DNA of 64,000 nt from a virus, in IMG/VR virus record IMGVR_UViG_3300022888_000583. One strand, given 5' to 3'. How positions within the stretch are numbered: the first letter of the stretch is position 1; the number at the start of each line of letters is the position of its first letter. Positions 24,434 through 60,675 of the stretch are shown one piece after another. The position numbers and the translations under genes were made by a program. The notes under the pieces were generated by a model. That model saw only the letters and a program-made list of their open reading frames with translations, searched no databases and was not told the DNA's origin.

Positions 24434-24455
24434 TATTCTTATAATAAGTATCGGG

Positions 24456-25512: not shown

Positions 25513-25527
25513 AGAAATTAAAATGTG

Positions 25528-25610
25528 AGGAAGGTAGAAGAATCGAACTCCTGCCCGTAAGGACACCCAAGGGTTCAAACCTTGTTGCCGGCCATTCAGC
25601 GGTACCTTCC
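25528..25610 (-). tRNA. tRNA-Ser(TGA), type II
   Basis: Acceptor GGAAGGT/ACCTTCC; anticodon loop TTTGAAC (anticodon UGA reads UCA); long variable arm. Confidence 0.6.
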
Positions 25611-25615
25611 ATTTG

Positions 25616-26041: not shown

Positions 26042-26164
26042 AATTTTATCCCCTTCTTTCCAATTGTCATGTCGTCTGTTGCAACATGTACTTAGAACAT
26101 GTCTTAATTTTGACGATATTTAGACACGTTATTCGCTCATGTCTATATCTTAGACATGTTATTG

Positions 26165-26253
26165 TACTCCCAGCTGGACTTGAACCAACATCTCGACTTT
26201 ATCAGAATCTGACCTGTTTATAAGACAGGGGCTTTACATTAAGCTATGGGAGC
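26165..26253 (-). tRNA. type II tRNA (23-nt variable region); anticodon loop CTTATAA reads UAU; identity unclear
   Basis: Acceptor GCTCCCA/TGGGAGT; T-arm GTTGGTTCAAGTCCAGC; 89 nt. Confidence 0.4.
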
Positions 26254-26258
26254 ATGTG

Positions 26259-26333
26259 TACTCTCGGCAGGACTCGAACCTGCAACCTTTTGGGTCGAAA
26301 CCAAGAACTCTATTCCAGTTGAGCTACGAGAGC
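26259..26333 (-). tRNA. tRNA-Arg(TCG)
   Basis: Anticodon loop TTTCGAC; T-arm GCAGGTTCGAGTCCTGC. Confidence 0.6.
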
Positions 26334-26338
26334 ATGTG

Positions 26339-26409
26339 TACTGGATGGGGGAATTGAACCCGCGCCTTCTCCATGTAAAAGAGAAATTCTACCATTAAAC
26401 TAATCCAGC
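26339..26409 (-). tRNA. tRNA-Val(TAC)
   Basis: Anticodon loop TTTACAT; T-loop TTCAATT. Confidence 0.5.
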
Positions 26410-26415
26410 GTGTTG

Positions 26416-26487
26416 TGCTCCAGAGCAGACTTGAACTGCCATTCTTGGTATATCAGACCAAAGTTCTACCGTTGAACTACTGGAGAA
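26416..26487 (-). tRNA. tRNA-Ile(GAT)
   Basis: Anticodon loop CTGATAT; T-arm GGCAGTTCAAGTCTGCT. Confidence 0.55.
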
Positions 26488-26493
26488 TGTATG

Positions 26494-26567
26494 TACCTCG
26501 AGTTGGAATTGAACCAACGACCTTTGGTTTATCAGACCAACGCTCTAACCAACTGAGCTACCGAGAT
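26494..26567 (-). tRNA. tRNA-Ile(GAT), second copy with a different body
   Basis: D-arm GCTCAGTTGGTTAGAGC; anticodon loop CTGATAA. Confidence 0.55.
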
Positions 26568-26657
26568 AGGTGCGGACTCATGCGGTGTTTTGGGGGAAAC
26601 TTTGCACAAGCCCTAAAAATTGATGTAAGTTGTGTAGTGATAACGAGATACATCTAA

Positions 26658-26739
26658 TGTCGCAGTGGGGAGACTTGAACTCCCGAGTTGCCGAATATGA
26701 GCCGACACTTACACGCCTGTCTCACTGCGAAAATTGTGA
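26658..26739 (-). ncRNA. tRNA-like element (good T-arm and acceptor, no canonical anticodon or D arms)
   Basis: T-arm GGGAGTTCAAGTCTCCC and acceptor CGCAGTG/CACTGCG; ~70 nt. Confidence 0.25.
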
Positions 26740-26876
26740 CTGGAATTTCGTTTGTAACCGAAGTGCACTTCATCATTACAATTGGCCGTTTCTCCCGATT
26801 CATTGTACGGCATTGATTCTAGGGTTATTCCGATTAAATGATAATTGTACCTATACCATTTAAAGTTGTCACATAG

Positions 26877-26949
26877 CGGCCTAAGCCAGATTCGAACTAG
26901 CAACGCGAGGTACTTCACACCTCCGCTCTACCATTGGAGCTATTAGGCC
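26877..26949 (-). tRNA. tRNA-Phe(GAA)
   Basis: Acceptor GGCCTAA/TTAGGCC; anticodon loop GTGAAGT. Confidence 0.7.
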
Positions 26950-26963
26950 ATATTTAATTTTTG

Positions 26964-27045
26964 TCCCGTTAGATGGAGTCGAACCAACATTGTCCATAGA
27001 CGACGGCTTTACAGGCCGCGGGGCATCCACTTGCCCAATAACGGG
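26964..27045 (-). tRNA. tRNA-Tyr(GTA), type II
   Basis: Acceptor CCCGTTA/TAACGGG; anticodon loop CTGTAAA; long variable arm. Confidence 0.65.
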
Positions 27046-27050
27046 TTGTG

Positions 27051-27124
27051 TACTCCCACAGGGATTCGAACCCCGACTAAAAGCTTAGAAGGCTCTTGTG
27101 CTAATCCTGTTACACTATGGGAGC
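27051..27124 (-). tRNA. tRNA-Arg(TCT)
   Basis: Anticodon loop CTTCTAA; T-arm CGGGGTTCGAATCCCTG. Confidence 0.65.
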
Positions 27125-27129
27125 AGTGC

Positions 27130-27315
27130 TTAATCTTTAAACTTGAACCATATTCTTCGGCCCACTTCGATGGTTGCACCGATTGAAATCATTGCCCCAG
27201 CCATAACAAGACCGTGAGACATTAAAGACAATCCAGCGATAAAGTACAATACAAATCTCAATGCTCCGAAATATGTAAATTCCCTATCTATTGCGTATCG
27301 TTCATCTACTGTCAT
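27130..27315 (-). CDS. small hydrophobic membrane protein (61 aa)
   Basis: Track ORF; two predicted TM segments. Confidence 0.3.
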   Translation of the reverse strand: MTVDERYAIDREFTYFGALRFVLYFIAGLSLMSHGLVMAGAMISIGATIEVGRRIWFKFKD

Positions 27316-27342
27316 TTTAATAACCCTTTCTTTTTAAATTTT

Positions 27343-27415
27343 GTACACCCGGTAGGTTACGATCCTACGACCTTGAGTTTAAGAGACTCCTGCTCTGCCA
27401 ACTGAGCTACGGGTG
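27343..27415 (-). tRNA. tRNA-Lys(CTT)
   Basis: Anticodon loop CTCTTAA; unusual T-loop ATCGTAA. Confidence 0.55.
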
Positions 27416-27423
27416 CGTTTGTG

Positions 27424-27497
27424 CAGGGGTATCAGGATTCGAACCCGATCTTCATGGTTTTGGAGACCATCGTGCTACCGTTAAACACTATACCCCT
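27424..27497 (-). tRNA. tRNA-Trp(CCA)
   Basis: Acceptor AGGGGTA/TACCCCT; anticodon loop CTCCAAA. Confidence 0.65.
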
Positions 27498-27504
27498 ATG
27501 TATG

Positions 27505-27579
27505 TAGTCCCCCAGGGAGTCGAACCCTGACATTGAACGGGTCTAAGCCGCACGCCTCTACCAGTTGGGCCAGAGGACC
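27505..27579 (-). tRNA. tRNA with anticodon UAG (Leu-type) but a short variable arm (type I), A73
   Basis: Anticodon loop CTTAGAC; T-arm CAGGGTTCGACTCCCTG; 6-nt variable region. Confidence 0.45.
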
Positions 27580-27593
27580 ATTATTTGTTTTTG

Positions 27594-27666
27594 TAGCATT
27601 GGTGAGATTCGAACTCACACTGGACGATTTTTGAAACCGCTTTCTCTGCCGTTGGAATACAATGCC
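27594..27666 (-). tRNA. tRNA with anticodon CAA (Leu-type) but a short variable arm (type I), A73
   Basis: Anticodon loop TTCAAAA; T-arm GTGAGTTCGAATCTCAC. Confidence 0.45.
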
Positions 27667-27689
27667 ATTTACCTAATTTTAATTTTTGA

Positions 27690-27778
27690 TTGTGGACACA
27701 ATGGGAATCGAACCCATTACGATGTTATTCTAATTTTAAATAAGTGGAAATTGAATTTTGATCGTATCCGATATGTCC
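27690..27778 (-). ncRNA. tRNA-like with a ~40-nt AT-rich insertion (intron-bearing tRNA or degenerate)
   Basis: T-arm ATGGGTTCGATTCCCAT and acceptor GGACATA/TGTGTCC; body not canonical. Confidence 0.2.
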
Positions 27779-27779
27779 T

Positions 27780-28690
27780 TGGTAGGGTTGAGATTATACC
27801 CTTTATAGTATCCCTTTGGGAAGATTATTTATTCCTTCCTGTGTCCACGACAACCCGCTAGGGTCTATACTCTTGCGAGTAGTAAGATACCAGTCCCAGT
27901 AGGTTTAGCCTACCACTCTTATCGTTCAGGTTATCTCCACAGTTACTTATTGCTATTCAATCTTGCAGGACTGACTAAGGTTTTAACACCACTAGAACTT
28001 TCGCCATAAAACATCCGCACCTTGTGAGTTTGGTTGCCCCCGATTCATCCGAAGATGTCAGGGATTAGGGAATTTTGCTCCTAAACGCTGTCGGTCTTTT
28101 TACTTTTCAGTGAAGTGGGAATTGAACCCACACCAGTTCGCTTAGAATGCGAATTGCCTAACCAATGAGGCGATTCATGATGTATTGTGGATATTAGAAT
28201 CTGCGCCGACCAGCGATGGCGTCCTCCCTTTTGAGGAACACATACCATTCAGATTCATACCATTTCCTGGATAAGGAATTTTAGCGGTTCTTAATTATTT
28301 CCAGTTTCACCCTGCGATGAAATGTTTAGTTATACATTACAATCCAGCGTTTTACCACTCATGCAATGCTTTCCCTAGAAAATACACATAATTACTAGAA
28401 TCAAGCCCTCAGTATCCCTACCTTGAACAAGACGCTCTGGCAATCCCTATTGGATTTCTCCTCACCGGCTGTTCCACGACAACCAGATACAATCCTCTCG
28501 TTCCTGGTGGAATCTGAGGTTCATATGTTAAACCATTGTATAGATGTCTCCTATTACTAAGAGCGGCTGTTCTACGAGCCCTTTAGTCCCACTTTCGTAG
28601 GGTTATCTTCATCACCCGAAGGTGAAGCGAATCCATACATCCGAATTCTATAATTTCAAAAAACTTTGACACTCTTTCGTGTCGATGATC
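27780..28690 (-). ncRNA. ~900-nt ORF-free structured region downstream of a degenerate promoter copy; candidate large ncRNA, intron or split tRNA
   Basis: No ORF of 60 aa or more, even allowing TGA as sense. Contains a UUCG tetraloop hairpin (CACCTTCGGGTG), GNRA hairpins (CCTACGAAAGTGGG; GACACGAAAGAGTGTC) and a tRNA-like T-arm (GTGGGTTCAATTCCCAC) at 28112-28135. Confidence 0.3.
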
Positions 28691-28728
28691 AATATACAAG
28701 ATTTAAATGTAAAAGTCAAGCGTTTTTT
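28691..28728 (-). promoter_or_regulatory. copy 6 (degenerate) of the promoter motif
   Basis: AATATACAAGATTTAAATGTAAAAGTCAAGCGTTTTTTT. Confidence 0.4.
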
Positions 28729-28829
28729 TCAATTTTCTTAACTTTTTTTCTCATTCCGTATTTGTATATATATATTAGGTTATAAGCCCAAACACCATTT
28801 TTATTTCAAAAAAGTGATTTTATTTTAAG

Positions 28830-28904
28830 TACTCCCAGAAGGATTTGAACCTCCGACCCCTTGGTTCGTAGCCAAGTGCTCTATTCCAGCTGAGCTATGG
28901 GAGC
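28830..28904 (-). tRNA. tRNA-Arg(ACG)
   Basis: Anticodon loop CTACGAA; T-arm GGAGGTTCAAATCCTTC. Confidence 0.65.
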
Positions 28905-29066
28905 GTGATTTTTACTTTTTGTACTGTATATTTCCACATGGAATTTTTATCATTTTGTTCCTTAACGTACGCTTTAGCGTCCGGTTTGGATTCGTATGCC
29001 GAGTCAATTTCTGAATCTCGGTTTCCATATTTTAATTTACTTAGTACCACATATACAATTTTCATT

Positions 29067-29198
29067 TTACCAGCCTTTTTTGTGTTTAGATTTACGATTA
29101 TATTTAGTCTTATCCTTAAACACTTTCCGAGTTGGAATTGTGGTACGCATCTCAGGTCGGATGCGATTTTTGTCTTTTCTTATTAGTTTCTTTTTCAT
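29067..29198 (-). CDS. very basic small protein (43 aa, or 27 aa from an internal Met)
   Basis: MKKKLIRKDKNRIRPEMRTTIPTRKVFKDKTKYNRKSKHKKGW immediately after motif copy 7. Confidence 0.3.
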   Translation of the reverse strand: MKKKLIRKDKNRIRPEMRTTIPTRKVFKDKTKYNRKSKHKKGW

Positions 29199-29244
29199 AC
29201 CTGAAGATACAAGATTATATTGACAAAGTCAAGCGTTATTTTCG
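29195..29244 (-). promoter_or_regulatory. copy 7 of the promoter/leader motif
   Basis: Full consensus copy. Confidence 0.55.
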
Positions 29245-29264
29245 CTTATTTGAAAATAATTTTG

Positions 29265-29336
29265 ATCCCCCGACCGGCCACGATCCGATACCAAAGCTTT
29301 ACAAGAGCCTTATTCTGCCAATTAAACTACAGGGGA
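29265..29336 (-). tRNA. tRNA-Thr(TGT) (unusual T-loop ATCGTGG)
   Basis: Anticodon loop CTTGTAA. Confidence 0.5.
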
Positions 29337-29348
29337 ATTTGTATTGCT

Positions 29349-29432
29349 CATGCGGTAGGATTCGAACCTACGACGTCGCTCTCGCGAAACAGATTAACAG
29401 TCTGCCACCATCGGCCTCTCGGTCACACATGA
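29349..29432 (-). tRNA. type II tRNA; anticodon loop CTGTTAA reads GUU; identity unclear
   Basis: Acceptor TCATGTG/CGCATGA; variable-arm hairpin TCGCGAGAGCGA; T-arm GTAGGTTCGAATCCTAC. Confidence 0.4.
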
Positions 29433-29434
29433 AT

Positions 29435-30010
29435 TTATATTTTTCTATAAGATTCTATTAATCCCATTTTAAACAATTCTTTTCCAGTAAGAATTTCCAA
29501 TTCAAGTGGGAATCATTCCCACTTAGCTTCATCTTTTGGAGTCTTATAACCCTTTACTTCAACATATTGTTTTTGTTTAATCAAATAAAAATCTGGAGTA
29601 TATCTATGCCCTTTATTTTCATATTCATAATAAAAATTTTCTTTTGGTCTTCTTCATAGGATATCATTATCATCTAATCATTTGGCATAATTTAATTCTC
29701 ATTTGCCATATAATTTAACCATACCATTGCATTTACTATCATATAAATGTGTTCTACTTTTGGAAAATGAATTATGTCATGTTCCATCTTTAATTTTTTC
29801 ATTTATAGTTTTTCGTATTTTTGATTTGGTTTCATCAGATACATTTTGTCTAGGATGACCATCGGTTACTTTTTTTATCCAATTATTTCTATTTGGATTT
29901 GATTTGCAACTAACACTATGCCCTCCTAATTTTCTACCATCATCAAATTTCATTCCACAATGTTTACAAATGCTATTACCAGACCCCTTAAATCTTTTTG
30001 CATTATCCAT
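29435..30010 (-). CDS. zinc-finger / HNH-like endonuclease-type protein (~191 aa) with 4 in-frame TGA, embedded in the tRNA array
   Basis: N-terminus CKHCGMKF...GGHSVSCKSNPNRNNWIKK; the frame runs through TGA at 29777, 29699, 29678, 29654 and 29513 to TAA at 29435. Confidence 0.45.
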
Positions 30011-30089
30011 ATAAATTTCCTCTTTATTATAAGTATTAAAGAATACAAAAATATACAGACTAACGCTCTAAATAGTTTTAAAATTTTTG

Positions 30090-30161
30090 CTCCGACGACA
30101 AGATTTGAACTTGCATTACCCTGTTTAACAAACAGACGCTTTACCCATTAGCTACGTCGGA
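30090..30161 (-). tRNA. tRNA-Asn(GTT)
   Basis: Acceptor TCCGACG/CGTCGGA; anticodon loop TTGTTAA. Confidence 0.65.
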
Positions 30162-30204
30162 AATTGGATTGGGTTTTTGAATAGAACCCTTCTGTAAACT
30201 ATTA

Positions 30205-30281
30205 TGGGGTGACTAGCGGGATTCGAACCCGCACTATCTGGGTCACAGCCGGACGTGCTAACCATTATCACTATAGCCACC
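30205..30281 (-). tRNA. tRNA-His(GTG) with G-1 and an encoded CCA
   Basis: Extra 5' G pairs with C73; anticodon loop CTGTGAC; 3' CCA present. Confidence 0.65.
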
Positions 30282-30300
30282 ATGTATGTTTTTTTGTTTG

Positions 30301-30373
30301 AGTACACGGTCAGAATCGAACTGACGTCCTCCGGGTTTGCAATCCAGTGCCTATGCCTCTCAGCCACGTGTAC
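30301..30373 (-). tRNA. tRNA-Cys(GCA)
   Basis: Acceptor GTACACG/CGTGTAC; anticodon loop TTGCAAA. Confidence 0.5.
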
Positions 30374-30601
30374 ATTAATGGAAACCAATCTCTTTACTGA
30401 GCTACATTGCTTCTAGCTCCCCCGCCGAAACGGATCATCACTATAATGCAAAGACTGGAGTTGAACCAGTGACCACAAGTTTATCAGTCTGGTGCTCTTT
30501 TTAGGTTTCTCAATTGGATTCGAGGTAAGGAATTACACCTTTGTTTTTCTAATACAATGGTTCGTCAACCAAAGCATATACGCCTTTAACGCTCTCAAGT
30601 G

Positions 30602-30674
30602 TAGTTCCATAGGGGATCGAACCCTAATCTCGGGCTTGAGAAGCCCGTATCCTATCCGGTTAGACGATGGAACC
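30602..30674 (-). tRNA. tRNA-Glu(CTC)
   Basis: Anticodon stem CGGGC/GCCCG; loop TTCTCAA. Confidence 0.6.
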
Positions 30675-30680
30675 ATAATG

Positions 30681-30753
30681 TCGTCTATCGGGGAATCGAA
30701 CCCCGCTCTCAGCCTTGAAAGGGCTGTGACATAAACCGATAGTCCAATAGACG
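30681..30753 (-). tRNA. tRNA-Glu(TTC)
   Basis: Anticodon stem CAGCC/GGCTG; loop CTTTCAA. Confidence 0.6.
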
Positions 30754-30758
30754 CTGTG

Positions 30759-30833
30759 TAGCTCCAGAGGGGAACAATCCCTCTTCTCTGCCTTGAAAGG
30801 GCAGTATCCTGTATCATCCTAGACGATGGAGCC
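30759..30833 (-). tRNA. tRNA-Glu(TTC), second copy (T-loop ATTGTTC)
   Basis: Anticodon stem CTGCC/GGCAG; loop CTTTCAA. Confidence 0.5.
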
Positions 30834-30897
30834 AATTATAGAATTTTGTATCAAGTACGAGAATCTGCTTGTGGACAAATATCTATTAAAACCGCCG

Positions 30898-30968
30898 TGG
30901 GTCGTGAAGGAATCGAACCTCCATCCGTGGGGTTACAGTCCAGTATACTACCGTTGTACGAACGACCC
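30898..30968 (-). tRNA. tRNA, anticodon loop CTGTAAC (GUA?) with a weak anticodon stem; possible pseudo-tRNA
   Basis: Good acceptor GGGTCGT/ACGACCC and T-arm. Confidence 0.3.
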
Positions 30969-31027
30969 AAATTGTGAGAATTTTTAATTATATACCGCTC
31001 CCAGATTTTCTCTAACTGGCGGATTGT

Positions 31028-31100
31028 GGATACATGACGGCTTCGAACCCTCATCCTTCTGTTTGCAAAACAGATGCTTTCCCAATTAAGCTAATGACCC
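31028..31100 (-). tRNA. tRNA-Ala(TGC)-like with acceptor mismatches (no G3-U70); likely pseudo-tRNA
   Basis: Anticodon arm TCTGT-TTTGCAA-ACAGA. Confidence 0.3.
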
Positions 31101-31183
31101 GACTGCAAATTCTTTACAGGATAGTGCTAGACTGAAGGAACACCTTTGACCTATGATCACTTGATCTCCGGCTGTGTTACTTG

Positions 31184-31255
31184 TGGAGTTACTCGGTTAC
31201 GATCCGAGGACTTCTGGTTGCAAACCAGAGATTTTCCCGATTAAACTATAACCCC
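31184..31255 (-). tRNA. tRNA-Ala(TGC)
   Basis: Acceptor GGGGTTA/TAACTCC with G3-U70; anticodon loop TTTGCAA. Confidence 0.65.
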
Positions 31256-31261
31256 ATTGTG

Positions 31262-31333
31262 CGGAACTGATGGGTAACGATCCCACTTCCACGGCTTGAC
31301 AAGCCGTTGTCCATGCCTACTGACTCCAGTTCC
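31262..31333 (-). tRNA. tRNA-Asp(GTC)
   Basis: Anticodon stem ACGGC/GCCGT; loop TTGTCAA. Confidence 0.65.
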
Positions 31334-31557
31334 AGATATCCATTGTACTTCTGAATGTACCTTAAATTACCATTGTAATTATGATGCAGGATTGGCATCA
31401 GCGGTTTCGGTAAGTGAACCTGCTGAATATCGTATCACTTCTGTCGCAGTGACCAGACCTTGGTTAATTTCGACTCATATACCAAGAATGAACCGGAACG
31501 CTATGACCCCATATCGTCCCATAGGGAGTACGCTAGTACTATTTCAGATTTAGTGGC

Positions 31558-31625
31558 GGGGCCAGAAATCGCATCTGGAAACGTGAGCTTATGAGGCTCC
31601 GTGGCACTTAGCTCCCCGCAATGTA
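31558..31625 (-). ncRNA. small structured RNA / tRNA-like (possible CAU anticodon loop CTCATAA, reduced D-arm)
   Basis: Acceptor-like GCGGGGA...CCCCGC; T-arm-like CCAGATGCGATTTCTGG. Confidence 0.2.
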
Positions 31626-31629
31626 TATT

Positions 31630-31863
31630 TTAATATAATTGGTTTTTGTATAGTGCTCTATAACGAGTGGTGTCCCCGTCATTGATAATTGTGTATGTTC
31701 CATCGCTATCCGCTACAAGTTCCAATATCGGATCAACTTGTTCCAAGCTTTCCAATGCCGAATTATGAACTTGTTCTTCAGTATAACTTAGGAATAGGAA
31801 TGCGAAAATTACGGTAATCCATATTACCCGTGTCCAATGATTTTTTGTAATCTTAAACATCAA
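31630..31863 (-). CDS. small secreted/membrane protein (77 aa)
   Basis: Track ORF; hydrophobic N-terminus. Confidence 0.35.
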   Translation of the reverse strand: MMFKITKNHWTRVIWITVIFAFLFLSYTEEQVHNSALESLEQVDPILELVADSDGTYTIINDGDTTRYRALYKNQLY

Positions 31864-31869
31864 AAACCT

Positions 31870-32214
31870 CTAGTCGCAAAAGCATGACACTACATGGTCA
31901 ATGGTAACTGGCAGATGTAATTCTGCATCTGAATTATGGATAGCATTACTTGTGCGATATCCTTCTTCATAATATTCTTTTCTAGGAGAATACAATTCCC
32001 GTTCGATGTCAGCCTTAACTGTGGCCGAAACTTTATCCGTAGGAAACCACGCGTCCAAATCAATAATATTATATGAAGATGGATCGCTATGGCTCTGTGA
32101 AATTACCATTACTATCATTTTGTTACCTTTATTTTTTAGGAGTAAATTTATCACTAAAGATGTAATTGAAAGCCCAATCGCTTTCATATCTCCCAAGTGA
32201 TAATACAAGTACAA
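31870..32214 (-). CDS. hypothetical protein (114 aa)
   Basis: Track ORF. Confidence 0.35.
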   Translation of the reverse strand: MYLYYHLGDMKAIGLSITSLVINLLLKNKGNKMIVMVISQSHSDPSSYNIIDLDAWFPTDKVSATVKADIERELYSPRKEYYEEGYRTSNAIHNSDAELHLPVTIDHVVSCFCD

Positions 32215-32418
32215 GACCTTCGCCTATCAATAATATTCCATAAATGAAATATTTCCAATTTGTTGAAGCTTTTACATGTCGTCTAATTTTGTTACTCATT
32301 TTTTCCTTTTTAATTTTAATAGGAGCTATGAGGAAAGCATTTCACTTCCATCTGATTATTTCCGCAGTACCGAACTGTTTGATAACCCGCATTCTGTTAT
32401 ACTATCATAGCGTGTTTG

Positions 32419-32491
32419 GCGAGTACACCGGGATCGAACCGGCAACCTCCGGCGTGACAGGCCGGTGTGCTTCCACTTGCACCTCTACTCG
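32419..32491 (-). tRNA. tRNA-Asp(GTC), second copy, CCA encoded
   Basis: Anticodon stem CCGGC/GCCGG; loop CTGTCAC. Confidence 0.55.
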
Positions 32492-32708
32492 AGATAAGCT
32501 CATGTGGTTTACAAATCCACTTCTAAAACCAATGCATCAGTCTCCAAGTATAGAGCGATACTTAAAATCATTTTTTAAAAGAAGTGATTTTCAAACTTTG
32601 GTTACCTTCAGTTTCCTTGAAAACACCTTTCTTAGACCCAAGATGAATGGAAGGCCCCTAATTAACCCCTAGGAAGGCGGTGTTTACTGTCACCGCAGTG
32701 TAATTTGG

Positions 32709-32783
32709 AACGGGATATCAGATTCGAACTGATACTTTAAGATTGGAAGTCTCGCGTGCTAAGCCGTTAAACACTAATCCCGC
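32709..32783 (-). tRNA. tRNA-Gly(TCC)
   Basis: Anticodon loop CTTCCAA; T-arm ATCAGTTCGAATCTGAT. Confidence 0.6.
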
Positions 32784-32834
32784 ATTGGTCGGATTGGGAA
32801 CTTCTCCATAGTGGATAATTCCCGCTCCTGTTTG

Positions 32835-32908
32835 TACACCCGGTAGGCAACGATCCTACAACCTTGGGCTTAAAAGGCCCCTGCTCTGCCAAATTGAGCT
32901 ACGAGTGC
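32835..32908 (-). tRNA. tRNA-Lys(TTT)
   Basis: Anticodon loop CTTTTAA; T-loop ATCGTTG. Confidence 0.6.
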
Positions 32909-33136
32909 ATAAAATTTTTGGAGTAGATTTCCATTATCACCCTGCAGGAATGAAATGGTACTCCACGGTCACAAAAAGTTTGAGTGAGATTCGAACCCAC
33001 CAGCTTACTGTATATTAGTCAAATTGAAACCCTTCGAATTGTTTCAACCTGAGAATATTCAGTAGCATCTGCCCTACTGCATCCATTCCCGTTAACCACG
33101 CTTTTGTATAAATTTTTTGTCTGGGGTGCAGGAGTC

Positions 33137-33209
33137 GAACCTGCCAAAACCATGTTTCCAAAACACAGCCGCCACCCCGACTGTTACCCCAGTTATGTAG
33201 CCCCCAATT
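33137..33209 (-). tRNA. tRNA-Pro(TGG)
   Basis: Acceptor CTGGGGT/ACCCCAG; anticodon loop TTTGGAA. Confidence 0.55.
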
Positions 33210-33531
33210 AAGGGGACTACTATATGTCAAATAATCACACGAGATACCTCGTAGTAACTATTTTGTTTTTTTACTATTATACCCAACTGTCAAAAAACCG
33301 ATGTGGCTGTACAATCACTAACAGCTGTGTAACTTCCCGTCAATTGGGTGATGAGCCCAAGCTAGACTGACACAACGAAGGTCAGTCGGCGATTTACATT
33401 TTTCTCCAATCGCAAATTATATAAAAGTGCAGTGAGCTTTAGAATTCTCACATTTCCAGCTGAAAGGCCGGCGACTTACCCTTAGTCCATACACATTCTT
33501 TCAAAAATCTTAGAAACTTATTCCGTTTCTA

Positions 33532-33600
33532 TCATACCTGAAGATACAAGATTATATTGACAAAGTCAAGCGTTTTCTTTGATTATCTTCATTTATTTTT
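33532..33600 (-). promoter_or_regulatory. copy 8 of the promoter motif, with the extended upstream AAATAAATGAAGATAATCAAAGAAAACG element
   Basis: Full consensus; drives a ~300-nt non-coding leader into tRNA-Pro. Confidence 0.55.
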
Positions 33601-33630
33601 CAATAAGCCGAGAAACCTTTTCGTTTCTCA

Positions 33631-33690
33631 CATACCTGAAGATACAAGATAAAAATGACAAAGTCAAGCGTTTTCTTTGATTATCTTCAA
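33631..33690 (-). promoter_or_regulatory. copy 9 of the promoter motif (tandem with copy 8, ~100 nt apart)
   Basis: CATACCTGAAGATACAAGATAAAAATGACAAAGTCAAGCGTTTTCTTTGATTATCTTCA. Confidence 0.55.
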
Positions 33691-33699
33691 TTATTTTTG

Positions 33700-33774
33700 T
33701 ACCCGCCCCGAGGCTCGAACTCGGAACTACTGGATTTTAAGTCCAGTCCCTCTTTCCATTTGGGGTAGACGGGC
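33700..33774 (-). tRNA. tRNA with anticodon UAA (Leu-type), short variable arm (type I), A73
   Basis: Acceptor GCCCGTC/GGCGGGT; anticodon stem CTGGA/TCCAG; loop CTTAAAA; T-arm CCGAGTTCGAGCCTCGG. Confidence 0.55.
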
Positions 33775-34728: not shown

Positions 34729-35451
34729 TTATGGTTTTAATCCAGCCTTATTTATAAATTCATCGCTGGGATTTACCTTATCTTTAATTTCTACCAGGGG
34801 CGGCTCAATGACTGGGTGGCCATAAGTGCCTTTGGAATATTCTATATCGTCATCCCCCAATTTAAGTTTCTCATAGGATTCGTCACCATACATGGATTCT
34901 TTTTTCTTCCATTTGAATTTATCCCAGAAACTCTTTTTAGGTTTTGGGCTAGCTTCATATAGTGCTTGTGCATAATCTAACAATACCATATTTGCCGCAA
35001 CAACCAATGTGATTGCAAGTGGATCAAATACGAATATCAATATGAATATAAAGAATTTAACTACTGTATCAACCGACGTTTCGAATGCTTGAGCAATGAA
35101 TATAACAGGGCCAACATCGACCCCCGATTCAACCAAACCAATTTTCAAGTCTGATATCGTAGTAGTGAGCTCATAGATTCTATCACTTATCGGATTAATT
35201 TTTTCCATAAATCCAGCTCGAGCTTTTCGTTTCGCTGTAGCATAATTATCCGGCATTGCATCTATTTCAGATTTCATTTCATCTTGTAAAAACGCTTTAT
35301 CGATTTTTAACTGTTCTACTTGTTCCTGATATACTTGTAATTGTGTAGACTGAGTTTCAAAATCCAATGTCGCACCTTGATACGCGTTGGATAGATAACC
35401 GAAAATGCCAGCACTGGTAATTAATACCAATACCAATACCGCCACCATCAA
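34729..35451 (-). CDS. membrane protein with coiled-coil (240 aa)
   Basis: N-terminal and central TM segments. Confidence 0.5.
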   Translation of the reverse strand: MMVAVLVLVLITSAGIFGYLSNAYQGATLDFETQSTQLQVYQEQVEQLKIDKAFLQDEMKSEIDAMPDNYATAKRKARAGFMEKINPISDRIYELTTTISDLKIGLVESGVDVGPVIFIAQAFETSVDTVVKFFIFILIFVFDPLAITLVVAANMVLLDYAQALYEASPKPKKSFWDKFKWKKKESMYGDESYEKLKLGDDDIEYSKGTYGHPVIEPPLVEIKDKVNPSDEFINKAGLKP

Positions 35452-35481
35452 ATACGTTTTAAGCCATATATTTAGTTTATC

Positions 35482-35673
35482 TCAATACCTATATAAAAAT
35501 GATGCAGATACCAATTTACCGAATTCCAAACTACTAGCCATTACAATGACTTGGGTAGTTGCACCGGCAAATAATTTTGCCAATCCGAATACGGAAAAGA
35601 ATGCTGCACTAGCGGCTATAGAAAATGCCGCAAGCCCTAAAAGAATAGGGAATAATATGCCCTTTGATTTCAA
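35482..35673 (-). CDS. small membrane protein (63 aa)
   Basis: Hydrophobic. Confidence 0.35.
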   Translation of the reverse strand: MKSKGILFPILLGLAAFSIAASAAFFSVFGLAKLFAGATTQVIVMASSLEFGKLVSASFLYRY

Positions 35674-42554: not shown

Positions 42555-42800
42555 TTACGACAACGATTCAGTTATCACATTTTTCGGTTGTGCACCGACA
42601 AATCGTTTTATTTCATTTCCATCTTCTTCAATAACCACGGTGGGTACTGATCGGATGCTATATTTTTGAGCGGACATCCTGTCCAAATCGATGTCCATTA
42701 TCTGAACTGAATAACCCTCAGCGGCTATTTGTTCCATTATTGGTTTAAAATGCTGACAGGGCGTGCATCATTGGGCCGAGAAATATTTTGCTACTTTCAT
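42555..42800 (-). CDS. glutaredoxin/NrdH-like thioredoxin-fold protein (81 aa); active site read as W-C-T-P-C with the W encoded by TGA
   Basis: MKVAKYFSAQ-[TGA]-CTPCQHFKP...RSVPTVVIEEDG; the TGA sits exactly at the conserved Trp of WCxPC; stop TAA. Confidence 0.65.
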
Positions 42801-42802
42801 AT

Positions 42803-43798
42803 CTATTTTCCTTTTTCCATTTTCATATAATTTTGTTCTACTAATTTTTCCGTCCAGCTTTGAGTAATATATTCAAAGGTAAATGTTGCCCCATGTATCT
42901 TAGAATACGCCTGTGCGATTTTCTGGGGATGGAATTTTCCAATATCCATCGTTTTGCCATCACCAAATACCAGTACTGTTTTGTTTCTAACTTCAGGACC
43001 ACTATATACAATGGCGTCCTGACTATATTTTTTACCCAATTTCTTTATCAAATCATATGATATTCCGGGTACGAATAGACTAGGCTCTTTTGTATTTACC
43101 AATTTGTCCTTTGATACATTTGCATAATCTGCACCATCTGGAGCCTCTTGCCAATGACCTTCCATTTTGAAAAATCCCAATCCTCTACTTTTCAGTATCG
43201 CTTCAAGTTGGTGCAATCCGGCCATATTTTGTTTCCGAGTATTACCTGCTCTCCATGATGTCAATATTCCATACGATTCGGCTTTTTGCTTTTGGGTGTG
43301 TTGCCATACTCTACCCAATGACATTTCATTCAATTTTTCTGAATTGCCCCGAGCTTTAAAAATATCCAATATGGAAATCCCATCTTTGAATTTAAATGCC
43401 TCATTCCATTGTAAAACTTCACGACTACTACTCACTTCCAATTTATTATTTTTTACCGCCAATAATCTAAATGTAAAAAAAATGGAACCTTTTTTGCTCA
43501 CTTTGTACGTTCAATCCCACAAAGCATTTTTGTGCCGTTTTGCCCAAAGCCAAGTTTCAGCAGTTCAAGAACCCCTAACATTTCTAGTTCTAATCCAGCC
43601 CCTTTTCATGGCCGCTATCATTATTTCTTCTCGAGCTTTACCTTCATGCCCCAATGGTTCACCATGCTTCTTAAATAATTCTCTGATTTTCTCAATAGTA
43701 GTACCAAATGTTTTTGGCTCTTTAATCATATAATCAATATGAGTAGTTGGTACTTCGTGTATAACTCCTCATTTTGATATCCAATATGCTTCCGTCAT
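42803..43798 (-). CDS. hypothetical protein (~332 aa) with at least 4 in-frame TGA and also TGG Trp codons
   Basis: ATG at 43798 is in frame with ORF 42803..43501 through TGA codons (...ISKWGV..., ...RGSWTAETWLW..., ...ALWDWTYK...). Confidence 0.5.
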
Positions 43799-43938
43799 AA
43801 TAATTAGTTCCTTTCGTCTATTAATATATATAAGCCCACATTAGAAAGCACACTTTTATTTAGCATTAATCAGGGCATATTAAAAAATATGCCCCGATTC
43901 AAATGAAAAAAGATTCTGTTTTTTGGGAATTACATTAT

Positions 43939-44841
43939 CTTAGTACCGCACGATGCACAATACTTCCAACCTTTTCTTGTTTTCACACCACATCCGGTGC
44001 AATATACAACCAAGTCCTTCTTTTCATTCGGCTTCTGGCTCACTGGCAACAAATGATATTCTACAAAATGAGAACGTCACGCATTGAATGTGCCAAATTC
44101 GGTAACAAATTCCTGTTTAGATTCGGAACCTTTGTCCACTCTACCAGTTTCAACGGATTTTTTTTGCTTTGAAACCCTAAGCTGATCACGGGGGTTAGCC
44201 GCTCCCAAGCCCACATTGCCATTGCTGGTAAGTGTAACATTTGAATTGGTGAACGCGGTGGTGGAATCTGTTAATAGCATTCTAGCATCACCTCCCGTTG
44301 AACTTCCCGACCCTACAAAATAATTACCGGCACTGATGCCATCATAAACAAATGGATTCGAATACAAGTATGGATTCGTTGTGGTTCAGGTTGTCGTCGT
44401 TGTTAACCAATTTGGAAAATACTCAATTTCATCGTAAAACTCTACGGTCACAACTCCATTATTTCTAATGGCATGTTTAACCGCATCGGTGTCTTCAACA
44501 TCATATGTACTAAATAAAAACCTTTTTGAGTTATTTAGAAACCTTTCTAAGTACTGATGTTCACCCGGTTTTAAGATGAAGCCGGCATCGCTTATGTAAC
44601 TGCCATTGACCAATATCTTGGCCAATCACTTTTTTGTACTGTGATTCGTTAATTCTATCTCGAATTCAGTACCATCTTTTAAATAGATATTACTACCGTA
44701 TTTCTTAATTCTGTTTTTTTTGATTGAAATGTCTGCGTCTGGATATCGCACATTTTCACGAATTGCTACGTTATTACTCATAACTTCTTCTCCCTTGCTT
44801 TTAGCTACACTCACCTTATAGATTGTTGCCGGAATTGACAA
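43939..44841 (-). CDS. hypothetical protein (~300 aa) formed by three track ORFs joined through 3 in-frame TGA; C-terminal CxxC...CxxC zinc ribbon
   Basis: TGA at 44626, 44386 and 44077; the frame runs to TAA at 43939-43941. Confidence 0.5.
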
Positions 44842-45912: not shown

Positions 45913-46998
45913 TTATTTATCTTCACTCCTCATACCCATTCCTACAAATCCAGTAGTCAATACTGGTTTGATTGATTTCCAGATCAAGTCTGAATAATCC
46001 CAGTCCTTTTTCATTTTGAATAATATAGACCTGTGAGTTTCTTCCTTTACTCGATCCGCAAAGTCACGCTGAACTTCAGATTCTTCTGGTGCCTCTGGAT
46101 AGTGTGAGTAAAACATTTTCATATTTTCCATGACCCTATTATAATCACTAAGTGCTTCACGCTCTACTTTATTATATTCCATAGTCAGTTGACTACATAT
46201 TGAGTTAGCCCATCTGTGTAATTCGTCTGGTATGCCAATTATGACATCCTGAACATTACCACCACTTGACAATGTTTCCCAAATCGTTTTTTCATTTATT
46301 CTAGTTACAACCCTATGCTTTTCAACATAGTTGGCAAATTTAACCTTAACCCTATATCCATCGAATAAGCATACAAAACCTTCTTCATTTTCCAAATCAA
46401 GTTCCTGTAATTGTGCCAATGTCATTTCATCGAAATCGAATTTCTTAACAACTTCAAATCCCAATTCATAATCGAGCGTCTCGTTAGCCGTATCATTATC
46501 CATAATAGTAAGCAATACCAAATCGTCTTTGGTTCCATAGTCAACTACGATTCTACCAGTTGGTGAAATCAATTCGAATATATAGGTTTTGCCTTCTTCT
46601 ATCTTATCGATAAAATCATCGTGTTTGGATTCCAATATTTCCTTACCGTAAATCGCGGTGTCTGATGTAAATGATCCTCTGGACACAACCAATGTCTGAC
46701 CTTGATATTTGAATATCTCAATAAGTGAACCATCCAATTTTTCGAAGACTACCATTTCTGTATCTTCTGGAATGTTTGCTTCAGGTTCTTCGTAGTTGAA
46801 AAACTTAGGTAATGGGCGAGCAACAATGTTGCCCTCACCATCAAGAACCAAACCACGACACATCATAGTCCATTCATTCCAATGTCTTTCGAATTGGGCA
46901 GACTGGGTATAATTGTATATGTACAAATCTAGATCAGGATGCTTGTTGACCCTAATATATTTTTTATCGATCTCTTCCTGGGGTATTTTTATTTTCAT
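45913..46998 (-). CDS. RNA ligase, T4 Rnl1-like
   Basis: Nucleotidyl-transferase motif I VFEKLDGSLIEIF (compare Rnl1 KEDGSL); motif V RVKVKF; 361 aa. Confidence 0.65.
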   Translation of the reverse strand: MKIKIPQEEIDKKYIRVNKHPDLDLYIYNYTQSAQFERHWNEWTMMCRGLVLDGEGNIVARPLPKFFNYEEPEANIPEDTEMVVFEKLDGSLIEIFKYQGQTLVVSRGSFTSDTAIYGKEILESKHDDFIDKIEEGKTYIFELISPTGRIVVDYGTKDDLVLLTIMDNDTANETLDYELGFEVVKKFDFDEMTLAQLQELDLENEEGFVCLFDGYRVKVKFANYVEKHRVVTRINEKTIWETLSSGGNVQDVIIGIPDELHRWANSICSQLTMEYNKVEREALSDYNRVMENMKMFYSHYPEAPEESEVQRDFADRVKEETHRSILFKMKKDWDYSDLIWKSIKPVLTTGFVGMGMRSEDK

Positions 46999-47243
46999 TT
47001 CTTTTTCTTCCTTCGATCTTCTTCAGACCATTTGTCCCAATTCAACACATAATCTAATATGCATTCATGTCCCCATCTTTTTTTGTGTCTAACCCACCAT
47101 TTGTAAATAACAACATCGCTATCATCATAAGCAGATGGGCAAGTTCCTAGTACATGAATAAGAATTGGTTTTCTTGACCAACCGGGATATATGTGAAATT
47201 TATCACCAGCTTTAAAATTCTTAGTTACTATGTCAAAATTCAT
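46995..47243 (-). CDS. hypothetical protein (82 aa)
   Basis: ORF. Confidence 0.4.
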   Translation of the reverse strand: MNFDIVTKNFKAGDKFHIYPGWSRKPILIHVLGTCPSAYDDSDVVIYKWWVRHKKRWGHECILDYVLNWDKWSEEDRRKKKK

Positions 47244-53398: not shown

Positions 53399-53703
53399 TG
53401 GGATTATTTGTTGAATATGTAAAATGGGGCATATCCTTTGGAATGGGCCCCGATGATGAAGATGAAATGGTTGATAAAATACAAGCCGTTGTCGATGTTA
53501 AGGGGTTGGAAGATATAGGTTGGGAATTGGACAATGTAATGGATTATTGTGAAGATGTAAAAATTGATGGTTCATACAATTATGGATTCAGTATTTATTT
53601 TCACATCAGGGGTGGAGAAGGTGGAGCTGTACAACTTATGGATGAATTTGAAGAGCACGCCAAAAATGCAGAAAAAGAAATCAGAAAGTATTTCGGTATC
53701 TAA
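53398..53703 (+). CDS. hypothetical protein (101 aa)
   Basis: ORF. Confidence 0.4.
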   Translation: MGLFVEYVKWGISFGMGPDDEDEMVDKIQAVVDVKGLEDIGWELDNVMDYCEDVKIDGSYNYGFSIYFHIRGGEGGAVQLMDEFEEHAKNAEKEIRKYFGI

Positions 53704-53719
53704 CATGGGAGATTTGAGA

Positions 53720-54064
53720 ATGAAAGCCAAATTCTTTACTGGCAAATATAAACATAAAGTAATGGTCGTGGATTACGCTTCCAGTAGAAATGTATTTATT
53801 ATACAATCTACTGGTGAAGAAATACCAACGGATCAGGGAACGATATTGCTATATGGTGAGGATACTAGAATTGTATATGACAAGACTGGTCAGACTTATT
53901 TACAAGAATTAGATCATGGAATGTGGGTAACTCCGATTCCAGTTGATTTTCCAGATACATGGGAACCAGAATCAAAGCATGGTAGGATTGTATTGGAACA
54001 TACTGCCGAAGAAGGCTTTATGAGTTTATTAAAAGATTGTGGATTTGCAGGATTTACCGGATGA
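53720..54064 (+). CDS. hypothetical protein (~114 aa; start at MKAKFF after a GGGAG Shine-Dalgarno)
   Basis: The track ORF over-extends upstream. Confidence 0.4.
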   Translation: MKAKFFTGKYKHKVMVVDYASSRNVFIIQSTGEEIPTDQGTILLYGEDTRIVYDKTGQTYLQELDHGMWVTPIPVDFPDTWEPESKHGRIVLEHTAEEGFMSLLKDCGFAGFTG

Positions 54065-58423: not shown

Positions 58424-58813
58424 ATGAGAACACCAATATTATCATTGACTAAAAAAGATTTCCATATCAGATGGTTTTCAGGTTCTGGTGCCGGTGGCCA
58501 GCATCGTAACAAGTCGGATAACTTGTGTGAAATTACTCACATTGAAAGTGGGATCAAACAAAAATGCACCGCCCACAAATCAAGAGAACAGAATAAGAAG
58601 GAAGCATTCAAGAATCTATGTGCCAAGCCAGAGTTCAAATTATGGTTGGCAAAAAAGACTGGAACGTATGTTGAAGTCAAACGAGATATGGATGTTGTTA
58701 GAAATTACAACTATGGCCGCAATGAAGTGAAAGACCATAGGACAGGCAAGAAATACAAACTAGACAAAATCCTAAAAGGTGAACTAGACCAAATTAGGAA
58801 AGACTACAGATAA
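58424..58813 (+). CDS. arfB: GGQ-motif peptidyl-tRNA hydrolase domain protein (ArfB/YaeJ-like ribosome rescue factor)
   Basis: FSGSGAGGQHRNK is the GGQ motif of class-I release factors and ArfB; ~129 aa; basic C-terminal tail. Confidence 0.6.
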   Translation: MRTPILSLTKKDFHIRWFSGSGAGGQHRNKSDNLCEITHIESGIKQKCTAHKSREQNKKEAFKNLCAKPEFKLWLAKKTGTYVEVKRDMDVVRNYNYGRNEVKDHRTGKKYKLDKILKGELDQIRKDYR

Positions 58814-60363: not shown

Positions 60364-60675
60364 ATGAAATCATATTGTGGAGATTGTAAATATTTAACCT
60401 ATGTAATGGACTATGGATCATTATCCATACACAATACAAAACCGGCTTGCAAGGCCGTTCTTAACTGCAGGGTCACAGACAACTGGAAACAAACCGGAAA
60501 TGTAACTCAATATGGTGATCCAAAAATAGACAACAAAGACAACGATTGCAACGCGTTTCGATATCCACGGAAACATTGGATTAAACAGAAAAGGCGTGAC
60601 AAAGCTATTAAGCTGGAAATGCAGAATGCCGCATTGCAAAAAGAAAATGATAATATTATGGAGCAGGACGATTGA
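60364..60675 (+). CDS. Cys-rich small protein (103 aa), paralog of 56013..56330, ending NIMEQDD
   Basis: See 56013..56330. Confidence 0.45.
   Translation: MKSYCGDCKYLTYVMDYGSLSIHNTKPACKAVLNCRVTDNWKQTGNVTQYGDPKIDNKDNDCNAFRYPRKHWIKQKRRDKAIKLEMQNAALQKENDNIMEQDD

What the first reader, a model, noticed from the sequence alone, without database searches (positions are those of the whole stretch)
42555..44841. In-frame TGA at conserved Trp positions: partial TGA-to-Trp recoding
In the glutaredoxin-like gene the active site reads SAQ-[TGA]-CTPC, so TGA sits exactly where thioredoxin-fold proteins have the Trp of WCxPC. In the GIY-YIG endonuclease (15353..15970) the junction REIY-[TGA]-IKMTDAVNIGYN aligns with I-TevI ERENFWIKELNSKINGYNI, again TGA at a Trp. 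The same pattern joins adjacent track ORFs into single genes at 575..1687, 3085..3426, 29435..30010, 42803..43798 and 43939..44841, with TAA/TAG as the real stops. By contrast nadE, the guaC-like gene, groEL and all plus-strand genes use only TGG and contain no TGA. A code-4-like reassignment restricted to a subset of genes resembles the partial stop-codon recoding reported in some gut phages. It implies a phage-supplied suppressor tRNA or release-factor manipulation that is not evident in this window.
Basis: partly seen in the sequence, partly recalled or inferred. Interest (0 to 1): 0.92.

Follow-up and report, generated by a model that had tools for sequence, protein, structure and literature searches.

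The report
Phage reads some TGA as tryptophan
This large aquatic phage uses the stop codon TGA as a tryptophan codon in its tail and baseplate genes, its homing endonucleases and a few other genes, while other genes still stop on TGA. The same trick is already known from gut phages, but no TGA-reading tRNA was found here.

Summary
I curated 31 in-frame TGAs in 12 minus-strand genes of the window, about 10% of Trp codons.

**TGA means Trp.**
- It sits at the Trp of thioredoxin WCxPC, at I-TevI's W, and at Trp or aromatic columns in five other families.
- In a related phage (56-87% protein identity), 25 of 27 TGA-involving aligned sites pair with TGA or TGG.
- Two TGA/TGG polymorphisms occur among >99%-identical strains.

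**The recoding is partial.**
- Metabolic, chaperone, replication and RNA-repair genes have only TGG.
- In a flanking block of small genes, 11 of 76 still end on TGA.
- In the adjacent baseplate/tail block, roughly one third of Trp codons are TGA.

This matches the phage stop-codon recoding (TGA to Trp, code 4) described for gut phages, so it is a new member of a known kind. It occurs in a T4-like aquatic phage at a density that coding-density screens would probably miss.

**The decoder is unknown.** The window's 41 default-threshold tRNA calls (plus a low-threshold tRNA-Met) include none with a UCA anticodon. About 117 kb of this phage's genome, reconstructed from other assemblies, also lacks one. 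I found no RF1 and no TrpRS.

Pseudogenes, selenocysteine, TGA=Gly and assembly error are rejected.

The parts
42555..42800 (-). Thioredoxin-fold gene with one in-frame TGA at codon 11, the Trp of WCxPC
   Evidence: Pfam Thioredoxin, E 6.6e-16. X aligns to W in PDB thioredoxins. The code-11 ORF (42555-42737) lacks the active site.
42803..43798 (-). Two-domain gene (N-terminal domain plus S-AdoMet-lyase-family domain) with TGAs at codons 10, 78 and 96
   Evidence: Full-length homologues P0122, P0123 and P0163 span all three sites. X78 aligns to W in 3 of 3, X96 to F/W/W, X10 to K/N/K. Pfam PF23780.
43930..44781 (-). Gene of a widespread family of about 280 aa ending in a zinc ribbon, with TGAs at codons 52, 132 and 235
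   Evidence: 1733 hits, most covering residues about 12-282 in one stretch. X235 lies in an aromatic column (W 5, Y 9 of 19). X52 is hydrophobic/aromatic (W 3 of 19). X132 is in a low-complexity stretch, one column from a semi-conserved W.
575..1687 (-). Baseplate-module gene (370 aa) with three TGAs and no TGG
   Evidence: X90 and X236 lie in consensus-W columns. X163 is W in close homologues. The same three TGAs are kept in a 69%-identical orthologue.
120..572 (-). 150-aa Ala/Pro/Gly-rich gene with three TGAs
   Evidence: Codon 28 is TGA in the window and TGG in two other strains. Coding score is positive across the TGAs.
3085..3426 (-). Small membrane-protein gene with one TGA
   Evidence: The orthologue in L009 has TGA at the same codon.
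4598..5071 (-). HNH homing endonuclease with four TGAs and no TGG
   Evidence: Cyanophage HNH homologues: X49 aligns to W/F/A/W, X128 to F, X43 to E/V/E/K.
5114..5302 (-). 62-aa gene with one TGA
   Evidence: ORF continuity and coding score only. No homologue was checked.
14413..14790 (-). 125-aa gene with three TGAs and no TGG
   Evidence: ORF continuity, tight gene packing and coding score. No family match.
15275..15970 (-). GIY-YIG/NUMOD3 homing endonuclease with three TGAs
   Evidence: Pfam GIY-YIG and NUMOD3. X66 aligns to W of I-TevI. The zinc ribbon is completed only after read-through, and the TAA at 15275 abuts the next start codon.
29435..30010 (-). Homing-endonuclease-like gene inside the tRNA array, with five TGAs
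   Evidence: tblastn alignments to five phage endonucleases: X104 aligns to W in 5 of 5, X119 to W in 3 of 5 (aromatic 5 of 5), X111 to W in 2 of 5 (aromatic 4 of 5).
34729..35673 (-). Membrane protein (weak Rz-like spanin match) with one TGA
   Evidence: PHROG 739, E 2.5e-4. Coding score is positive on both sides of the TGA.
27423..27497 (-). The only tRNA-Trp found; anticodon CCA, D-stem pair U11:A24
   Evidence: ARAGORN and the sequence itself.
16585..33774 (-). tRNA array: 41 tRNA genes at default ARAGORN threshold, plus tRNA-Met at a lowered threshold; none has a UCA anticodon
   Evidence: ARAGORN and Rfam.
46995..47243 (-). Gene ending on TGA in an ATGA overlap with the next start; a TAA follows two codons later
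53564..54064 (+). Gene ending on TGA followed directly by TAG
60364..60675 (+). Gene ending on TGA in a TTGA overlap with the next gene
58424..58813 (+). Stand-alone GGQ domain (the C-terminal third of a class-I release factor, without a codon-reading domain). Any link to the recoding is unproven.
   Evidence: Pfam RF-1. NCBIfam matches positions about 210-347 of prfA/prfB.

Best explanation
The window comes from a large T4-like aquatic phage that reads UGA as tryptophan in part of its genome.

**Shown.** In-frame TGA stands for Trp. It is concentrated in baseplate and tail genes, occurs in all four homing endonucleases seen, and occurs in a few others (thioredoxin, a SAM-lyase-family fusion, a zinc-ribbon protein, a spanin-like membrane protein). 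Metabolic, chaperone, replication, RNA-repair and most small early-type genes avoid it. Some small genes still terminate on it.

**Inferred.** As proposed for recoded gut phages, genes written in the standard code are translated while host RF2 still stops at UGA. Later, an efficient UGA decoder charged with Trp takes over, so the recoded genes are made only then.

The decoder is most likely a phage tRNA(UCA) in the unsampled part of the genome, or one the search tools cannot recognise. Efficient decoding is required because single genes carry 5 TGAs in this phage and 13 in the relative. Leaky read-through would give almost no full-length product.
For: **TGA aligns with Trp**
- The Trp of thioredoxin WCxPC.
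- I-TevI's W.
- Consensus-W columns in the 370-aa baseplate-module protein.
- W in 3 of 3 and F/W/W in the SAM-lyase fusion.
- W in 5 of 5 and 3 of 5 in the endonuclease.
- Aromatic columns in the zinc-ribbon family.

**TGA and TGG are interchangeable**
- Against the related phage L009, aligned sites were 10 TGA:TGA, 15 TGA:TGG and 20 TGG:TGG, with only 2 TGA:other.
- TGA/TGG polymorphisms occur between >99%-identical strains.

**The genes are real and the sequence is sound**
- Coding signal continues across the TGAs.
- The TGAs recur in independent assemblies.

**Distribution by gene class**
- Structural genes left of the window carry many TGAs. Primase-like and SbcC-like genes carry none.
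- TGA is rare as a stop in the window, at most about 5 of about 110 genes.
- It ends 11 of 76 small genes on the right flank, mostly overlapping the next start in another frame.

**Other**
- There is no fixed base after the in-frame TGAs.
- Published gut-phage recoding shows the same pattern. Only 35% of code-4 phages there had a detectable tRNA(UCA).
Against: - No tRNA(UCA) was found in the window or in about 117 kb of the same genome, from window coordinates about -26 kb to +91 kb.
- No RF1 or TrpRS was found.
- Recoded genes are scattered among unrecoded ones on the same strand rather than forming one block. They include a SAM-lyase-family gene and a thioredoxin, which one would not automatically call late.
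- Expression timing was not measured, and no T4-type late-promoter association was found.
- The host and its genetic code are unknown.
Confidence: 0.8

Rival explanations
1. No dedicated suppressor exists. The phage's own tRNA-Trp(CCA) reads UGA by C-A wobble. Its D-stem has U11:A24, the configuration created by the E. coli Hirsh UGA-suppressor mutation G24A. Alternatively its anticodon is edited or modified. TGA would then act as a built-in attenuator.
For: tRNA-Trp(CCA) is the only Trp tRNA among the window's 41 default tRNA calls plus a low-threshold tRNA-Met, and it has U11:A24. No tRNA(UCA) was found in about 117 kb. Homing endonucleases, which tolerate or need low expression, all carry TGAs. 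From memory, not tested here: B. subtilis reads UGA as Trp at a few percent, and Hodgkinia uses UGA=Trp with a CCA tRNA.
Against: Structural genes carry 3-5 TGAs in this phage and 13 in the relative's tail-fibre-like gene. Partial read-through compounded over that many sites would give negligible product. U11:A24 may be common in bacterial tRNA-Trp and was not compared systematically. The rest of the genome is unsampled.
Confidence: 0.12
2. The host itself uses genetic code 4, and the phage simply matches it.
For: This would explain the missing suppressor tRNA. Every apparent TGA stop inside the window has a TAA or TAG within 0-20 codons.
Against: TGA is absent from most genes despite about 266 TGG. 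Eleven small flank genes end on TGA with the next gene overlapping in another frame, and read-through would add 2-48 codons. GroEL and the tmRNA tag point to the FCB group or Marinimicrobia, where code 4 is not known (plus background knowledge).
Confidence: 0.06
3. The TGA-bearing genes are pseudogenes carrying TGG-to-TGA nonsense mutations.
For: TGG to TGA is a single transition. A standard-code huge phage (LR756508.1) has one such TGA in its endonuclease homologue.
Against: The TGAs are kept at identical codons in a 69%-identical orthologue. Segments downstream remain conserved and coding. Essential baseplate genes are affected. The phage is abundant in many samples.
Confidence: 0.01
4. TGA encodes selenocysteine or glycine (code 25), or the TGAs are assembly errors.
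For: TGA has these meanings elsewhere. The thioredoxin fold is common among selenoproteins.
Against: TGA sits at the Trp position, not the Cys position, of WCxPC. The aligned columns are Trp or aromatic, not Gly or Cys. No tRNA-Sec was found. There is no shared downstream context. The TGAs are identical in independent assemblies.
Confidence: 0.01

Closest known systems
TGA-to-Trp (code 4) stop-codon recoding in gut phages (Agate, Jade and crAss-like clades; Borges et al. preprint 10.1101/2021.08.26.457843; Mgcod, 10.1101/2022.06.29.495998)
   Same: In-frame TGA aligns to Trp. TGA is depleted as a stop. Recoded codons accumulate in structural (and possibly lysis) genes, while replication and other genes keep the standard code. 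The genome is large and rich in tRNAs. A suppressor tRNA is often not detectable.
   Different: The setting is aquatic and the phage is T4-like, not from the gut. Density is low (about 10% of Trp codons in the window), and my crude ORF-coverage gain from reading TGA as sense is only about 4 points, below the 10% threshold used in large surveys. Recoded genes are scattered singly among standard-code genes and include every homing endonuclease seen. No tRNA(UCA), RF1 or TrpRS was found in about 117 kb.
Organism-wide genetic code 4 (Mycoplasma/Spiroplasma, some insect endosymbionts)
   Same: UGA means Trp.
   Different: In those organisms UGA is never a stop, RF2 is lost and a tRNA-Trp(UCA) is usually present. 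Here TGA still ends some genes and only tRNA-Trp(CCA) is seen.
Hirsh-type UGA suppression by tRNA-Trp(CCA) (E. coli G24A; natural low-level UGA read-through in B. subtilis)
   Same: A CCA-anticodon tRNA-Trp with U11:A24 is the only Trp tRNA present.
   Different: Known efficiencies are partial. Nothing here shows that this tRNA reads UGA.

Membership tests
Phage stop-codon recoding, TGA to Trp (code 4 type) | In-frame TGAs inside genes whose homologues are uninterrupted across the site | tested here: met
Phage stop-codon recoding, TGA to Trp (code 4 type) | TGA aligns preferentially with Trp | tested here: met
   Orthologue table: 25 of 27 TGA-involving sites pair with TGA or TGG. Conserved-W columns. 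Strain TGA/TGG polymorphisms.
Phage stop-codon recoding, TGA to Trp (code 4 type) | TGA depleted as a terminator | tested here: met
   At most about 5 of about 110 window genes end on TGA; TAA dominates.
Phage stop-codon recoding, TGA to Trp (code 4 type) | Recoded codons enriched in structural and lysis genes; standard code elsewhere | tested here: met
   Baseplate/tail block versus metabolic, replication and small-gene blocks. The lysis assignment is weak.
Phage stop-codon recoding, TGA to Trp (code 4 type) | Phage-encoded suppressor tRNA with UCA anticodon | tested here: inconclusive
   None in the window or in about 117 kb of the genome. The literature detects one in only 35% of such phages.
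Phage stop-codon recoding, TGA to Trp (code 4 type) | Host uses the standard code | not testable with these tools
   The host is unknown. GroEL is nearest to Marinimicrobia and the FCB group at 65-71%.
Organism-wide genetic code 4 | TGA never functions as a stop | tested here: not met
   Eleven of 76 small flank genes end on TGA with an overlapping next gene in another frame. ATGA and TTGA overlaps occur in the window.
Selenoprotein genes | TGA aligns with Cys/Sec; tRNA-Sec present | tested here: not met
   TGA is at the W, not the C, of WCxPC. No tRNA-Sec.
Genetic code 25 (TGA = Gly) | TGA aligns with Gly | tested here: not met
   The aligned columns are Trp, aromatic or variable, never Gly-dominated.

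The most novel reading that the evidence does not exclude
The phage reassigns UGA to Trp without any tRNA(UCA). Its own tRNA-Trp(CCA), which naturally has the U11:A24 pair of the Hirsh suppressor, would do the decoding, possibly after anticodon editing or modification. The phage's translation-rescue set (tmRNA, a codon-blind GGQ domain derived from a release factor) or a block on host RF2 would assist. This would be a route to codon reassignment not yet shown for any virus.
Probability: 0.12. Interest if true: 0.8.

Novelty: new member of a known kind. Interest (0 to 1): 0.45.

Why it matters
Standard gene calling (code 11) splits at least 12 genes in this window and most baseplate and tail genes next to it, so annotation of this abundant phage and its relatives is wrong unless TGA is read as Trp.

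Recoding is this sparse, and surveys use a 10% coding-density threshold. My crude ORF-coverage measure rises by only about 4 points. Low-level recoding may therefore be more common outside guts than reported.

The genome offers a clean natural case of one codon with two meanings. A well-stocked tRNA array lacks the expected suppressor, which makes it a useful system for asking how phages switch the code.

Tried and rejected
- **Suppressor tRNA search.** I ran ARAGORN at default and lowered thresholds, with and without introns, and Rfam at E up to 1. The only UCA call (29467-29552, plus strand, 80% threshold) has a poor acceptor stem and no variable-arm pairing, and I reject it. The UUA call at 27692-27778 has a broken anticodon arm.
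- **Genome walking.** I used exact-protein look-ups to reach window coordinates about -26 kb to +91 kb. No tRNA lies outside the window's array.
- **A longer contig that was not this phage.** A 157-kb contig reached through a 61-aa cluster member belongs to a different related phage.
- **IMG/VR.** An exact-pattern scan found nothing. A protein scan found only distant C-terminal homologues.
- **LR756508.1 (484 kb).** I fetched it whole because its endonuclease homologue has a TGA at a Trp site. It uses the standard code (TGA is 25% of stops) and has tRNA(CUA) but no tRNA(UCA), so it is not a recoded relative.
- **Crude coding-density comparison between codes.** It is not discriminating for this window, because the tRNA array and the small number of sites blur it.
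- **T4 late-promoter motif TATAAATA.** It is not associated with TGA-bearing genes.
- **Chimeric query.** The last word-indexed protein search was swamped by one family, so the zinc-ribbon gene was searched with the representative library instead.

Full report
**What the window is.** The window has 37% GC and is almost entirely coding. Minus-strand genes occupy 1 to about 52.3 kb and plus-strand small genes follow. ARAGORN finds a tmRNA and an array of 41 tRNA genes between 16.5 and 33.8 kb. The window has no near match among deposited phage genomes. The same phage, at more than 99.5% identity, recurs in many metagenome assemblies with contigs up to 97 kb. Gene content is T4-like. It includes a gp25-type baseplate wedge, gp30.3-like and Y00F-like genes in the flanks, RNA ligase 1 and Seg-like endonucleases.

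**Checking the observation.** I count 31 in-frame TGAs in 12 minus-strand genes. About 266 TGG occur in about 108 ORFs. I trained a codon-usage score on TGA-free genes. It stays positive in frame on both sides of nearly every TGA and is near zero or negative in the other frames. The TGAs are identical in independent assemblies from different samples, so they are not assembly errors.

**What TGA stands for.** I replaced each TGA with X before alignment, so the answer could not be built in.
- Thioredoxin: X falls on the W of WCxPC.
- 370-aa baseplate-module protein: two of three sites are consensus-W columns. The third is W in the closest homologues.
- 42803-43798: three full-length two-domain homologues show this is one gene. 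X78 aligns to W in all three, X96 to F/W/W and X10 to K/N/K.
- Endonuclease at 29435-30010: X104 is W in 5 of 5 and X119 in 3 of 5, with all five aromatic. X111 is W in 2 of 5. Two other sites are variable.
- HNH gene: X49 aligns to W/F/A/W and X128 to F. X43 is not Trp.
- Zinc-ribbon gene 43930-44781: it belongs to a family with 1733 detectable members. Most of the top-ranked hits cover it in one stretch. Two sites are aromatic or hydrophobic columns that include W. One lies in a low-complexity stretch.

The strongest evidence comes from a related phage contig, L009 (GC 33%, orthologues 56-87% identical). Among aligned Trp-codon sites I found 10 TGA:TGA, 15 TGA:TGG and 20 TGG:TGG. Only 2 were TGA:other, the same low rate seen for TGG:other. 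Among near-identical strains, codon 320 of a 361-aa baseplate-module gene and codon 28 of gene 120-572 switch between TGA and TGG. TGA and TGG therefore behave as synonyms. Pseudogenes, selenocysteine, glycine and artefact are excluded.

**How partial the recoding is.** In the window, the NAD-salvage genes, IMPDH-like gene, GroEL/GroES, deformylase, ClpP, RNA-repair genes and the AAA ATPase contain only TGG. So does the 787-aa protein. I reconstructed the flanks from other assemblies.
- Left flank: baseplate and tail genes carry many TGAs. My tally is roughly 21 TGA to 38 TGG. The primase-like and SbcC-like genes beyond them carry none.
- Right flank: in a block of 76 small genes, 12 code-11 calls end on TGA. 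One is really an HNH-like gene joined by a TGA that aligns to W in another related phage. The other 11 are followed by a gene in a different frame, several with ATGA-type overlaps, so TGA works there as a stop.
- Inside the window, the few TGA-terminated genes all have TAA or TAG within 0-20 codons.

The bases after in-frame TGAs show no fixed pattern, so this is not a context-programmed read-through signal.

**Mechanism.** The pattern matches published stop-codon recoding in gut phages. Those phages show TGA aligned to Trp and loss of TGA as a stop. Recoded codons accumulate in structural and lysis genes while replication genes stay standard. A suppressor tRNA was detectable in only 35% of code-4 genomes. 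The inferred logic is a temporal switch. Standard-code genes are translated while host RF2 acts on UGA, and recoded genes are translated once a UGA decoder is present.

I could not find the decoder. None of the window's tRNA calls (41 at default threshold plus a low-threshold tRNA-Met) has a UCA anticodon. No tRNA at all lies in the flanks, from about -26 kb to +91 kb in window coordinates. No RF1, TrpRS or deaminase turned up in the Pfam, PHROG and NCBIfam scans or in the precomputed annotations.

The only Trp tRNA has anticodon CCA and a U11:A24 D-stem pair. That is the arrangement produced by the Hirsh UGA-suppressor mutation in E. coli (the comparison rests on my own knowledge). This keeps a suppressor-free mechanism open. 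However, genes with 5 TGAs in this phage and 13 in the relative argue for near-complete decoding, which known CCA-mediated read-through does not reach.

The host is unknown. The phage GroEL is closest to Marinimicrobia MAGs (68-71%) and then to other FCB-group bacteria. The tmRNA tag (GTNYAYPVAA) resembles FCB-type tags (own knowledge).

**Comparison and novelty.** This is a member of the known class of phages with TGA-to-Trp recoding. It differs in four ways:
- the habitat and lineage (aquatic, T4-like);
- the low density and scattered placement of recoded genes;
- the fact that every homing endonuclease seen is recoded;
- the absence of a recognisable suppressor in a genome with a near-complete tRNA set.

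My crude ORF-coverage measure rises by only about 4 points when TGA is read as sense. Surveys that require a 10% gain in coding density may therefore miss it. A 484-kb phage with distantly related proteins uses the standard code, so the trait is not clade-wide at that depth.

**Verdict.** The result is useful and cleanly documented, but it is not a new kind of biology. The open question is which molecule reads UGA.

Noticed in passing
27785-28257 (-), with 28107-28180 and 27692-27778: A GOLLD RNA (190 bits, above gathering) sits inside the tRNA array. A tRNA-Arg(UCU)-like element is embedded in it. Directly 3' of it lies a tRNA-like element with good acceptor and T arms but a broken anticodon arm.
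   Followed up: partly
25241-25522 (-): A match to bacterial RNase P class A RNA spans the whole model at 41.9 bits (E 1e-9), well below the gathering score of 100. It lies next to tRNA-Ser. It could be a reduced RNase P-like RNA or another structured RNA.
   Followed up: no
26164-26253 (-) and 29346-29432 (-): Two unusually long tRNAs (90 and 87 nt) have long variable arms but anticodons UAU and GUU. That arm type normally belongs to Leu, Ser or Tyr tRNAs in bacteria, so their amino-acid identity is unclear.
   Followed up: no
26659-26730 (-): A plausible tRNA-Met(CAU) is found only at a lowered ARAGORN threshold. At default settings the array has no Met tRNA.
   Followed up: partly
58424-58813 (+): A 129-aa protein equals the GGQ domain and C-terminal part of RF1/RF2 (model positions about 210-347) without any codon-recognition domain. 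It lies next to GroES.
   Followed up: partly
4238-4594 (-): A phage-encoded tmRNA has the tag GTNYAYPVAA. A related phage (L009) has the tag GTNYAIAA.
   Followed up: no
16034-16510, 18395-18787, 23068-23607, 45913-46998, 47245-48027 (all -): An RNA-repair set: RNase H-like, cyclic-phosphate receiver domain, Tpt1/KptA 2'-phosphotransferase, T4-type RNA ligase 1 and RlaP nucleotidyltransferase. ClpP (18787-19374), Hsp20 and a Mom-like gene (45235-45912) are also present.
   Followed up: no
52345-52426 (+); reverse complement at 33518-33599 and 41886-41959: An element of about 75-82 bp is repeated three times at 92-93% identity. One copy sits at the divergent junction between the minus- and plus-strand gene blocks. 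It may be a promoter or leader element.
   Followed up: no
about 104-555: This is a strain-variable segment. Other assemblies of the same phage carry a different insert here, which changes the gene at 120-572.
   Followed up: partly
57856-58128 and 58141-58419 (+): Two plus-strand ORFs lie in the same frame, separated by a TGA and four codons. They could be one TGA-containing gene or two genes. This was not resolved.
   Followed up: no
L039 5665-6282 (right flank, outside the window): An HNH-like gene in the small-gene block has an in-frame TGA aligned to W of an uninterrupted 203-aa orthologue in a different related phage (L058).
   Followed up: yes
L025 (LR756508.1 39197-39724): A standard-code 484-kb phage has a single in-frame TGA at a Trp position in its homologue of the 29435-30010 endonuclease. 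It is probably a nonsense mutation.
   Followed up: yes
8668-10290 (-): The phage GroEL is closest (68-71%) to Marinimicrobia MAGs, one from Saanich Inlet, and then to Bacteroidota, Chlorobi and Ignavibacteria. This is a weak hint at the host lineage.
   Followed up: partly
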